Origin: Nitrospinota bacterium | Lineage (GTDB): Bacteria > Nitrospinota > Nitrospinia > Nitrospinales > VA-1 | DNA length: 37,341 bases | Assembly: GCA_038108555.1 (NCBI GenBank) | Contig: JAYNIA010000009.1 | Span: 33,809-71,149, forward strand | Direction: 5' to 3' | Part shown: piece after piece, positions 27,001 through 30,000 of the stretch | Layout: every line of letters begins with the position of its first letter | How positions within the stretch are numbered: the stretch's first letter is position 1 | Made by a program: the position numbers

Positions 27001-30000
27001 AAACCAGAGCCCCGCCCCCAAAAATCATCAGAAGCTTTTTATTGGAGAGAATTTTTTGAATTTTCCCCTTTAAACCAGGAGCGGTTGCACCCTCTCCTGC
27101 TCCCGCCTCTTCCAGTAGCGCCTCTAACTCCGCTGCTTCATCTGTCGATAACTCTTCTTTACTCTCTTCTTCAGCCATAGATTCATTCCATCGAAAAACA
27201 CATTTCTTCTAGTATTTATTCGGAATTTCTTGATGGGAACTCAATACTAAGCTTTTGTTTTTTAACTATTTTCTCCAGAAATAGTCGATAATTCCTTATA
27301 AATATCCTTTACCTTTTGTCTCAAATGGGGTTTATCTGATGAATTTTCTATAACAAAATCGGCAAATTTGATTTTTTCACTGCTGGGCATTTGATTTCGG
27401 ATTCTGGCAATCACTTCCTCCCGGGTCCATTCACTTCGGTCTAACACCCGTTCAATTTGATTTTGTTCATCTGTATTTACGACAATGACCCGATCCATCG
27501 CTTTATAGTTTCCCGATTCGATCAATAAGGCAGCATCGACAATCACCAGGGCATTTGGATCTTTTTCACATATCCTCAAATATTCTTCTTTTTCACTTTC
27601 GAAAACTCTGGGGTGGAGGATGTTTTCCAACTCTTTTTTTTTATCAGGATTATTAAAAACAATTTCGGCTAGCTTTTTTCTGTCCAACCTTCCAGAGTCA
27701 TCAATAACTGATTCACCAAACATATCTGAAATTTCTTTTAGTGCCGGCTGTCCGGGTTCTACCAACTTGCGGCAAATTTGGTCGGCATCTAGAACCTTGG
27801 CTCCAAATTCCCGAAAATAGGAGGCAGCCAAAGTTTTGCCCGATCCCATTCCACCTGTAAGTCCCACCCTTAGTCCCAAACCGCACTCCAATCGATCAAG
27901 CTAAAATAAGGTTATCCAATAGTTCGGTAAACAGCTTCATAACTTTTCGGGTAATAGGTCCCGGCTTTCCATCACCTACAGGACGACTATCAAGCTTTGA
28001 GACAGGCATCACTTTTTTCACCGTTCCCGTTAAAAAGATTTCATCTGCTTTAAACAACTCCTCCCCGGGCCATTTCCCTTCCTCCAAAGCCATACCATTC
28101 TCATTCGCCAATTGGATTATCTTGTCGCGAGTAATCCCAGAAAGAATCCCGCATTCCTTGCTGGGGGTTAATAAACGACCTTCTCTTACGAAAAACAGGT
28201 TGCTGGTGGTACTTTCAGTTAGCAAGCCCCAAGGATTCACCATAATTGCATCTTCCGCCCCCATTTTTTGGGATTCGACCCGCGCTAAAACATTATTTAG
28301 ATAATTACCCGTTTTTACAGCGGGGTTTAATGAATCACGGGAGTTCCTTTTAATAGAGACGAGCGCAACGGAAATTCCTTTTTCGTAACTTTCATCAGAA
28401 ATCTGGGGAGTGCTTTTGACAAAGATAATCACATTGGGTTTAAAACAGGAGGAAGGATCAATATCCATTTCCCCTTCTCCCCTTGTAATTATAATTCGGA
28501 TATAGGAGTCCGCATTATTGGCGTGCTTTAAAGTAGTTTGAATTTGCTCCTTAATCTCATCGGGTGTGAGAGGAATATTTAAAGAAATTCCGGCAGCAGA
28601 TGCATACAGCCTTTTCAAATGATCATCCAGGAAACACGGTTTTCCCTGATGCGTGCAAACAACTTCATAAATGCTGTCTCCAAACAAAAAACCATGATCC
28701 ATAATAGAGATGAAAGCTTCATCCTGAATTTCACCATTAATATTTATTTTTGTTGTCATAAGATTTCAGGAAAGGTTTTTCACTCTATTTTTTTTCTACA
28801 GATTTTAAAATATCGTTTAGTTTTTCCAGATCTTCGTTCGAAAATTCATCCAGGGGTTTGTCATCTGATTTTGAATTTTTGTTCGAATTCGGAAGATTTT
28901 TCTTTAAATTATCTATTTGATCTGCCATGTTCTTGAGGTTTTTAAGCTCCTCAAGTTTTTTCTTGGCGCTATCTACAGCGCCCCCCATATCAATACTATC
29001 CACCAGCTTCTTCCTGAAATTAAGAGCGTCAGGGTTTTTATTCACATAAGCATGAGCTTCAGCGATATAAGGGGCCGCTAGAGAGTCTTTAGTCATTTTT
29101 TCAGCCACCTTGGGTAAAAACTGCAAGGGAAACGTCAATGCAACGACAATTACCGCACCTCTTGCCAAACCCACAACTCCCCCCCCTATTCGATTCACTA
29201 CAGAAAGGGGGTTGCCTGTAAAAAGCATTCCACTGGCGACTTTTCCCATTAGGGAAATGATGATTGCCGTAATGATATAAATTGCGACAAAAGCAATAAT
29301 CTTTGCAATATTTTTGCTGGAGATACTTTCCATCAAAACCGGCGCAAAAGACCCGTGATACTTCATGGCCATCAGGAAACCACCCAGATAGGAAAGAAGA
29401 GAAAAAACCTCTTTGATGAATCCCTTAAACAGGGAAATAACCATACTCAAACCTAATATGGAACAGACGATAATATCAAAGGTAGTCATAATAATTTTTG
29501 GATATCACTTAAAATTTTTCCGCTGTAATCCCGCAAAATCAACTTTAATGAAGAGGTATAAATATCCGGATTCATCTGGATTTCTTTTTGCAAACTATCC
29601 CAATCGAAATATTTTCCTTCACTGATTTCTTCCGGGTTTATTTTAATTGTCGCATCCGTCTTGCAGATATAAACTTGTACATGTTCCTGGTAAGTTTCCG
29701 GACAGGCTTTAATTTTAACAACAGGTTTTAAATCACAACGAATCCCCAGCTCTTCCATCAATTCCCTATGAGCACATTGGTCATAGGTTTCATCAGCATC
29801 TACATGACCGGCGGAAGAGGTATCCCACAGTCCGGGATTCTCATCTTTTAATAAAGATCTTTTCTGCAAAAATATTCGTTTTTTTGAATCAAATACCAGC
29901 ACATGGATGGAGCGATGACACAAATTCTGTTGATGAATTTCCCGACGGGTGGCTTTTCCAATGACCCGATCATTTATATCAACCACATCATAGATTTCGT

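What a model noticed while it worked through the whole genome (the two positions that open the first line are those of the whole stretch)
27896..28759. No glutamate racemase in Nitrospinales: a second class-IV aminotransferase as the likely source of D-glutamate for murei [...]
The genome has a complete mur pathway with a canonical D-glutamate-adding MurD, alanine racemase and Ddl, but no member of the Asp/Glu racemase family, and the same holds for 32 of 33 near-complete genomes of the phylum, four closed ones among them. I propose that D-glutamate is made by transamination from D-alanine and 2-oxoglutarate by g01110, a 287-aa class-IV aminotransferase that exists beside the canonical IlvE (g01847) and the PabC-like g01078; if it is not, these bacteria have an undescribed route. 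In a Gram-negative lineage a MurI-independent wall synthesis would be unusual and ties murein synthesis to the 2-oxoglutarate pool.
Evidence so far: No Asp_Glu_race row in pfam.tsv. Six-frame search with PF01177: 0 matches at E<=0.001 in this genome and 4 of 4 closed relatives, while 10 of 14 control genomes ring; over the 34 genomes searched (>=95% complete plus this one) 33 have no match, one (G075) has a 256-aa racemase-type frame. MurD g01024: TIGR01087 equivalog, 1e-132; no extra gene in the dcw cluster. Alr g02305 TIGR00492. Three Aminotran_4 genes: g01847 55% to Pseudomonas IlvE; g01078 next to a PabB-like gene; g01110 40% to Archaeoglobus IlvE and 32% (2e-42) to Bacillus licheniformis Dat. 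The MurD2/MurL bypass is reported only from a few Proteobacteria and actinomycetes (PMC8788868, passages read, call 166).
(Added by a program. Inside this text positions count along the whole contig: contig position 33,809 is position 1 of the stretch shown here. "Call 12" and the like, gene names such as g00115 and contig names such as C1 are that model's own, and its searches are not shown. The text may have been shortened before it was handed on; [...] marks where a part breaks off. The agent that wrote the report below was given it as the finding of a first reader that could run no searches.)

Follow-up and report, generated by a model that had tools for sequence, protein, structure and literature searches.

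The report
Likely substitute enzyme for wall D-glutamate
These nitrite-oxidising bacteria lack the usual enzyme that makes D-glutamate for their cell wall, and this gene, mislabelled as a branched-chain amino acid enzyme, probably fills the gap with an active site of an untested kind.

Summary
The absence is real. No glutamate racemase was found in 111 of 111 genomes of families f1-f7; the two basal families carry it (7 of 9). The MurL bypass is excluded with a positive control, MurD has the D-glutamate residues, and MetC-family enzymes occur in only 10 of 58 genomes. g01110 is probably not an IlvE: it lacks the BCAT Gly38/Arg40 and has Tyr31, Val33 and a beta-turn lysine (GTVK248) as in D-amino acid transaminases, but neither known alpha-carboxylate trap. 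Orthologues occur in 90 of the 111 racemase-less genomes and 0 of the 9 basal ones. The same uncharacterised group occurs in Planctomycetota (36 of 105 without MurI, 0 of 16 with) but coexists with MurI in Myxococcota and Bdellovibrionota (42 of 70). Best reading: a D-amino acid transaminase that supplies D-glutamate (0.6). DapF moonlighting cannot be excluded. The route itself is known in a Gram-negative (Thermotoga TM0831); the active-site type is the new part.

The parts
27896..28759 (-). g01110, 287-aa PLP fold type IV aminotransferase, candidate D-amino acid transaminase
   Evidence: model pLDDT 90.5, TM 0.91 to archaeal BCAT 5mqz
28655..28684 (-). Motif 1, residues 26-35: F26, Y31, V33, C35 (F/Y/V as in canonical D-amino acid transaminases; BCAT has Y/F/G/R)
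   Evidence: F26, Y31, V33 in 61 of 61 orthologue sequences, position 35 never K or R; mapping to E. coli IlvE Y31/F36/G38/R40
28460..28504 (-). Motif 2 and O-pocket loop, residues 86-100: Y86, R88, M98-x-I100; no RxH carboxylate trap
   Evidence: R88 in 61 of 61, RxH in 0 of 61
28313..28315 (-). Catalytic lysine K149
   Evidence: invariant; aligns with E. coli IlvE K159
28016..28027 (-). Beta-turn 2, G245-T-V-K248; identical to the GTVK237 turn that binds the gamma-carboxylate of D-glutamate in Aminobacterium DAAT
   Evidence: K or R in 61 of 61 orthologues; PMC10003956 passages
28785..29489 (-). cvpA-like gene, conserved upstream neighbour; no evident functional link
   Evidence: Pfam Colicin_V; in 24 of 25 loci of families f1-f4, 0 of 8 of f5-f7
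27262..27891 (-). coaE, dephospho-CoA kinase, conserved downstream neighbour; no evident functional link
   Evidence: TIGR00152; in 24 of 25 loci of families f1-f4, 0 of 8 of f5-f7

Best explanation
g01110 is a D-amino acid transaminase of an uncharacterised active-site type and the main source of D-glutamate for MurD. Alr makes D-alanine; g01110 moves its amino group via PLP (K149) to 2-oxoglutarate, giving pyruvate and D-glutamate. Inferred binding: alpha-carboxylate in the O-pocket at Y31 with R88, gamma-carboxylate in the P-pocket at K248 and the turn backbone. Shown here: absence of MurI and MurL, D-type MurD, presence of Alr, the motifs, the distribution. Inferred: stereoselectivity, the binding mode, the flux. 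A side racemase activity as in Thermotoga TM0831 would fit equally well.
For: (1) A need: D-type MurD (D204, K347, K374, A442 = E. coli D182, K319, K348, A414; MurD2 control has E, I, R, P) with no MurI and no MurL (0 of 58; 0 of 13 with the Xanthomonas control ringing at 836 bits). (2) Not needed as IlvE or PabC: a canonical IlvE passes its cut-offs and a PabC-type gene is present in 49 of 51 f1-f4 genomes of >=90% completeness. (3) Motifs: Y31 with V33 is listed only for D-amino acid and (R)-amine transaminases (PMC12429042 Table 1); G38 and R40 of BCAT are replaced in 61 of 61 orthologues, and the equivalent R43S and G41V+Y101F changes destroyed BCAT-like activity in the Thermobaculum enzyme (PMC8320979); K/R at the end of beta-turn 2 marks four non-canonical DAATs and the Burkholderia one; Desulfobacula DtolTA with Y34/K91 is strictly D-selective (PMC11673721). 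(4) Distribution: 90 of 111 f1-f7 genomes, 9 of 9 single-contig ones; 0 of 18 class IV proteins in the 9 f8/f9 genomes; Planctomycetota sample 36 of 105 without MurI against 0 of 16 with. (5) Precedent: TM0831 (PMC9790342).
Against: It has neither known alpha-carboxylate trap (no R98/H100, no R26), and R88 is second-shell in AmicoTA. Nearest solved structures are BCATs (40-41%) and TIGR01122 is passed, narrowly (247.1 against 245.55). The group coexists with MurI in 35 of 50 outside genomes and shows no exclusion in Bdellovibrionota (42 both, 28 group only, 42 MurI only, 19 neither; p 0.36). 69 of 105 MurI-less Planctomycetota had no member among the hits classified. The two supporting contrasts are each close to one evolutionary event. 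No mur, alr or ddl gene recurs beside it. DtolTA performs only half-reactions. DapF is present throughout.
Confidence: 0.6

Rival explanations
1. DapF moonlights as glutamate racemase, as in Chlamydia, and supplies most D-glutamate; g01110 does something else or is a back-up.
For: DapF in 72 of 74 phylum genomes; activity shown for Chlamydia DapF (PMC5885031); slow-growing cells may need little.
Against: Scores 176.7 against a cut-off of 350 on the bifunctional DapF model and passes the ordinary one; sits in dapF-dapA-dapB (neighbours named by eye); no column separates 28 MurI-less from 3 MurI-bearing DapF sequences; leaves the universal retention of g01110 unexplained.
Confidence: 0.15
2. g01110 is an aminodeoxychorismate lyase, or a lyase/transaminase hybrid like M. 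tuberculosis Rv0812, kept mainly for folate.
For: In families f5-f7, 0 of 6 genomes of >=90% completeness have a PabC-type gene, while 5 of 5 tested have a PabB-type enzyme and only two class IV genes. Bifunctional precedent: PMC8105722. R88 matches the PabC K/R.
Against: The catalytic Thr of PabC (PMC3174152; its match to position 33 is recalled, and agrees with T36 of the genome's own PabC-type protein) is Val in 61 of 61 orthologues; a separate PabC-type gene exists in 49 of 51 f1-f4 genomes; no pabB beside any member fetched.
Confidence: 0.1
3. g01110 is a second L-selective BCAT, as annotated, and D-glutamate comes from an undescribed enzyme.
For: Archaeal-BCAT scaffold, Y86-x-R88 and hydrophobic loop as in BCAT; public records name it so.
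Against: Lacks G38, R40 and the GTAA turn; carries a cation where BCAT binds the alpha-carboxylate; canonical IlvE present.
Confidence: 0.06
4. g01110 is D-selective but serves D-amino acid salvage or balance; the bulk of D-glutamate comes from another fold (Alr or another PLP enzyme moonlighting, or an unknown racemase).
For: Coexistence with MurI in Myxococcota and Bdellovibrionota shows that the group has a role where MurI is present; the genome was not scanned whole for every racemase-like family.
Against: One Alr and one YggS only; MetC family in 10 of 58 genomes; a two-cysteine motif scan gave DapF as the only clear racemase-like hit (judged by eye).
Confidence: 0.09

Closest known systems
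Thermotoga maritima TM0831 (PDB 3csw, deposited as putative BCAT)
   Same: Class IV transaminase in a Gram-negative without glutamate racemase, shown to make D-glutamate from D-amino acids and 2-oxoglutarate and to racemise Glu and Asp (PMC9790342).
   Different: Only a distant relative (E 1e-25); its active-site motifs were not compared here.
Canonical (group I) D-amino acid transaminase, Bacillus sp. YM-1 Dat
   Same: F26, Y31, V33; same fold (TM 0.88, 33% identity).
   Different: No K35, no H86/Y88, no R98-x-H100 trap; TIGR01121 182 bits against a cut-off of 277.
Non-canonical (group II) D-amino acid transaminases: AmicoTA, Halhy, CpuTA, BlasaTA
   Same: R/K at position 88 and K/R closing beta-turn 2; GTVK identical to AmicoTA.
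   Different: The first-shell R26 is F, and F31 is Y.
Desulfobacula toluolica DtolTA
   Same: Tyr at 31 with a cation at 88 and Arg at 138; D-selective.
   Different: A monomer with no P-pocket cation (GTTV) that performs only half-reactions; g01110 has K248.
Archaeal-type BCAT (Archaeoglobus 5mqz, Geoglobus 5e25)
   Same: Closest scaffold: 40-41% identity, TM 0.91-0.92; Y86-x-R88; similar O-pocket loop.
   Different: Y31/F36/G38/R40 and GTAA (E. coli numbering) are replaced by F/Y/V/C and GTVK.
PabC and M. tuberculosis Rv0812
   Same: Fold; K/R at 88.
   Different: Val in place of the Thr at 33; not beside pabB.

Membership tests
PLP fold type IV aminotransferase | Fold, catalytic Lys, PLP-binding Arg50/Glu182/Tyr153 | tested here: met
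BCAT (IlvE) | Motif 1 Y31-F36-G38-R40 (E. coli numbering) | tested here: not met
   F, Y, V, C; holds for 61 of 61 orthologues
BCAT (IlvE) | Beta-turn GTAA as alpha-carboxylate site | tested here: not met
   GTVK; K/R in 61 of 61
BCAT (IlvE) | Motif 2 Y95-x-R97 and hydrophobic 107-x-109 | tested here: met
   Y86, R88, M98, I100
BCAT (IlvE) | NCBIfam cut-offs | tested here: inconclusive
   TIGR01122 passed by 1.5 bits; PRK08320, PRK12479, PRK06606 not passed
Canonical D-amino acid transaminase (group I) | F26, Y31, V/A33 | tested here: met
   61 of 61; motif from PMC10003956 Table 2
Canonical D-amino acid transaminase (group I) | R98-x-H100 carboxylate trap; Y88-x-Q90; K/R/P/T35 | tested here: not met
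   RxH in 0 of 61; R88; position 35 S, C, A, I, T, N or V
[quoted passage not shown] | First-shell R26 and F31 | tested here: not met
   F26 and Y31 in 61 of 61
[quoted passage not shown] | R/K88 and cation at the end of beta-turn 2 | tested here: met
D-amino acid transaminase (any group) | D-Ala + 2-oxoglutarate gives D-Glu + pyruvate | not testable with these tools
   needs enzyme assay or complementation
Aminodeoxychorismate lyase (PabC) | Catalytic Thr at position 33; link to pabB | tested here: not met
   V33 in 61 of 61; no pabB nearby; position match partly recalled
(R)-amine transaminase | H53-Y58-V60-S62, F113-x-E115, R126 | tested here: not met
   Y and V match, but F26 for H and R88 for E
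MurD2/MurL pathway | MurL present; MurD with E197/R358 | tested here: not met
   residues from PMC8788868 section 5
Bifunctional DapF (Chlamydia type) | NF038284 cut-off; Glu racemase activity | tested here: inconclusive
   176.7 against 350; activity cannot be tested here

The most novel reading that the evidence does not exclude
g01110 founds a third group of D-amino acid transaminases, built on the archaeal-BCAT scaffold with a Y31-R88 alpha-carboxylate site and a beta-turn cation, widely mislabelled IlvE in Nitrospinota, Planctomycetota, Myxococcota and Bdellovibrionota. It has replaced MurI as the sole D-glutamate source across Nitrospinales and in about a third of MurI-less Planctomycetota, an alternative to the DapF explanation for that phylum, and may double as ADC lyase where PabC is lost.
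Probability: 0.45. Interest if true: 0.7.

Novelty: new variant of a known kind. Interest (0 to 1): 0.55.

Why it matters
It would close a gap in wall synthesis for a major group of marine nitrite oxidisers, correct the IlvE label on a large enzyme group (95 of the best 150 clusters at 50% identity carry the signature), and add a third way of building D-selectivity in fold type IV enzymes, which are used to make chiral amines. It also offers a testable alternative to DapF for part of the MurI-less Planctomycetota. One complementation experiment decides it. The pathway logic itself is not new.

Tried and rejected
Gene neighbourhood as a clue: 33 phylum loci and 139 outside loci gave no recurring mur, alr, ddl or pab gene (only cluster representatives were scanned). 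Long members of the group: C-terminal NYN, GAF or ZnuA domains in 4 of 8 longer proteins, no hint of substrate. Mutual exclusion with MurI as a general rule: rejected. MetC as the phylum's route: rejected, 10 of 58. MurL: rejected with control; the earlier searches without a control were not enough alone. Profile score as a classifier for the group: did not separate it from BCAT and PabC types, so members were called by motif (Y31, R88, K/R248); a first Bdellovibrionota count (38/28/46/19) missed 4 members cut by my ORF caller and was redone. Tree (99 sequences, FastTree): the group falls beside canonical Dat-type sequences (support 0.78), but its own support is 0.30 and the f1-f4 plus f5-f7 join is 0.59; no claim of monophyly rests on it. 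Promoter and terminator scan: no more than shuffles. No complex prediction or read mapping was run: neither would tell the substrate. Cluster-member names for the outside proteins could not be looked up.

Full report
The gene. Window 27896-28759 (-) encodes a 287-aa class IV aminotransferase. It lies between a cvpA-like gene and coaE, an order kept in 24 of 25 loci of families f1-f4 and in 0 of 8 of f5-f7. GC content is ordinary (0.41 against 0.40 for the window). The model is confident (pLDDT 90.5) and closest to archaeal BCATs (TM 0.91-0.92, 40-41%).

The gap is real. PF01177 finds nothing in this genome at E<=10. Of 120 phylum genomes 10 match. In families f1-f7 (111 genomes, of all completeness levels) the 2 matches are not MurI: one frame lies beside a dihydropyrimidinase and hits no NCBIfam family, the other is of the aspartate racemase family. 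In f8 and f9 (9 genomes) five have full-length MurI over the TIGR00067 cut-off, two have MurI pieces at contig ends, one has a non-MurI member and one has none. There murI precedes rph; in this genome rph lies mid-contig with no murI before it. The wall pathway is otherwise present: MurB, C, D, E, F, G, MraY, Ddl, Alr, Mpl.

Known bypasses. MurL: 0 of 58 phylum genomes of >=90% completeness; 0 of 13 in a search where a Xanthomonas record rang at 836 bits; tblastn and phmmer with that MurL find nothing here (best E 0.16). The model is built on Xanthomonadales, so a very distant MurL could escape, but MurD settles the point: it has the residues of E. coli MurD at D182, K319, K348 and A414, where the MurD2 control has E, I, R and P; D182 and K348 are the pair that sets chirality (PMC8788868, section 5 read). 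MetC family: present here but in only 10 of 58 genomes; a glutamate racemase activity of some MetC enzymes is recalled, and an NCBIfam model of that name exists (far below cut-off). DapF: in 72 of 74 genomes, canonical motifs, below the bifunctional-DapF cut-off, no column separating 28 MurI-less from 3 MurI-bearing sequences. It cannot be excluded from sequence.

The active site. Residue numbers match Bacillus Dat up to about 100. In 61 of 61 distinct orthologue sequences (the 63 fetched, two genomes twice): F26, Y31, V33, R88, R138, K149, and K or R at 248; position 35 is never K or R; no RxH in the loop. All 120 proteins kept from the homologue search (of 1464 found) agree at 26, 31, 33, 88 and 248. 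Against E. coli IlvE these positions are Y31, F36, G38, R40, R97 and A259. In the Thermobaculum enzyme R43S, and G41V with Y101F, destroyed BCAT-like activity (PMC8320979, passages); g01110 carries the first and half of the second naturally. Y31 with V33 is tabulated for D-amino acid and (R)-amine transaminases only (PMC12429042, passages with Table 1). The turn GTVK is identical to that of Aminobacterium DAAT, whose K237 binds the gamma-carboxylate of D-glutamate in a crystal structure (PMC10003956, passages with Tables 1-2); STIK, SSVR and SGVR do the same job in other DAATs (PMC10671532, passages). What is missing is a known alpha-carboxylate trap: neither R98/H100 nor R26. The nearest precedent is DtolTA, with Tyr and Lys at these positions, D-selective but limited to half-reactions and lacking the P-pocket cation (PMC11673721, abstract and passages). 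I infer a Y31-R88 site; no coordinates were available to measure it.

Why a third class IV gene. IlvE is canonical. A PabC-type gene beside pabB is present here and an orthologue in 49 of 51 f1-f4 genomes of >=90% completeness. So g01110 is kept for a third job. Its orthologues (48-82% identity, one a fragment) are in 90 of 111 f1-f7 genomes, 52 of 56 good ones and 9 of 9 single-contig ones; one further genome has a piece at a contig end. None of the 18 class IV proteins of the nine f8/f9 genomes has the signature; those genomes are 73-90% complete. Against this: f5-f7 lack the PabC type (0 of 6) yet have PabB (5 of 5 tested), so a lyase role there is open; Rv0812 is a precedent for both activities in one site (PMC8105722, passages), but V33 argues against it (PMC3174152, passages).

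Beyond the phylum. A profile search returned 150 representatives at 50% identity; 95 carry Y31, a small residue at 33 and K/R248. Of the 80 loci 14 were set aside as Nitrospinota-type; 50 of the other 66 were tested and 35 have a TIGR00067 match, 30 over the cut-off: 30 of 34 myxobacterial or delta-labelled, 5 of 8 Bdellovibrionota-type (one labelled only 'bacterium'), 0 of 7 labelled Planctomycetota, 0 of 1 unlabelled. In a sample of 131 Bdellovibrionota: 42 both, 28 group only, 42 MurI only, 19 neither, p 0.36. In 121 Planctomycetota: 0 both, 36 group only, 16 MurI only, 69 neither, p 0.003; only the best 110 of 180 profile hits were classified, and kin are not independent, so the p value overstates. 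The group is therefore not a strict substitute for MurI. Coexistence does not refute the activity (Dat and a racemase coexist in M. tuberculosis), but the distribution supports the claim in two lineages only.

What is known. Thermotoga maritima, Gram-negative and without glutamate racemase, makes D-glutamate with TM0831 by transamination and by racemisation (PMC9790342, a commentary, first of two parts read; the original paper was not seen). Many PVC bacteria, Rickettsia, Xanthomonas, Xylella and Bordetella lack MurI (PMC5885031, passages; PMC5814848, passages). So the route is known. I found no paper on this gap in Nitrospina or on this motif set: searches; none of the listed papers (20 of 292, 15 of 940) held the word Nitrospina. 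Most subscription papers are outside the library, and I read no supplements; the motif table S1 of PMC11673721 and the PVC tables of PMC5885031 may bear on novelty. The scan's earlier notes held nothing on this protein.

Verdict. Observation confirmed with a narrower range than the whole phylum. It works like a D-amino acid transaminase by inference but fails the membership tests of both described groups: a new variant of a known kind. Interest 0.55.

Noticed in passing
families f5-f7, e.g. L245, L246, L247, L249, L250: PabB-type enzyme without any PabC-type class IV gene in 5 of 5 genomes tested; how ADC is cleaved there is open.
   Followed up: partly
L006-L010 (families f8, f9): murI sits upstream of rph in most of these loci, after an amidase-like and a GerMN-like gene in f9 (named by eye); the GerMN-like gene has no match in this genome.
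   Followed up: partly
window 30047-31363 (-): 438-aa protein with an HPr-like domain only at residues 338-392 and a long unassigned N-terminal part; found near g01110 in 7 of 33 relatives' loci.
   Followed up: no
window 13839-14717 (+): 292-aa ORF with no Pfam match inserted between carA and carB in the pyr operon.
   Followed up: no
window 2786-3789 (-): O-methyltransferase in two ORFs (dimerisation domain 3241-3789, catalytic part 2786-3238), possibly a split gene.
   Followed up: no
window 21658-24024 and 20875-21633: MltD-like lytic transglycosylase with three LysM domains and an M14-type peptidase near g01110; the former recurs in 6 of 33 loci.
   Followed up: no
G000:C4:118500-123500 (L312): The MetC/MetB-family gene, absent from the 3 congeners tested, lies beside an AmmeMemoRadiSam radical SAM gene.
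   Followed up: no
G000:C8:70795-71925 (L310:8795-9925): The ORF called at the ftsW position of the dcw cluster got no NCBIfam hit at 1e-20 and its start looks out of frame; not examined further.
   Followed up: no
P0146, P0221: Two members of the group are fused to a C-terminal NYN domain.
   Followed up: no
Bdellovibrionota sample: Of 19 genomes with neither MurI nor the group, 4 carry a canonical RxH-type Dat and 3 a near-member of the group.
   Followed up: partly
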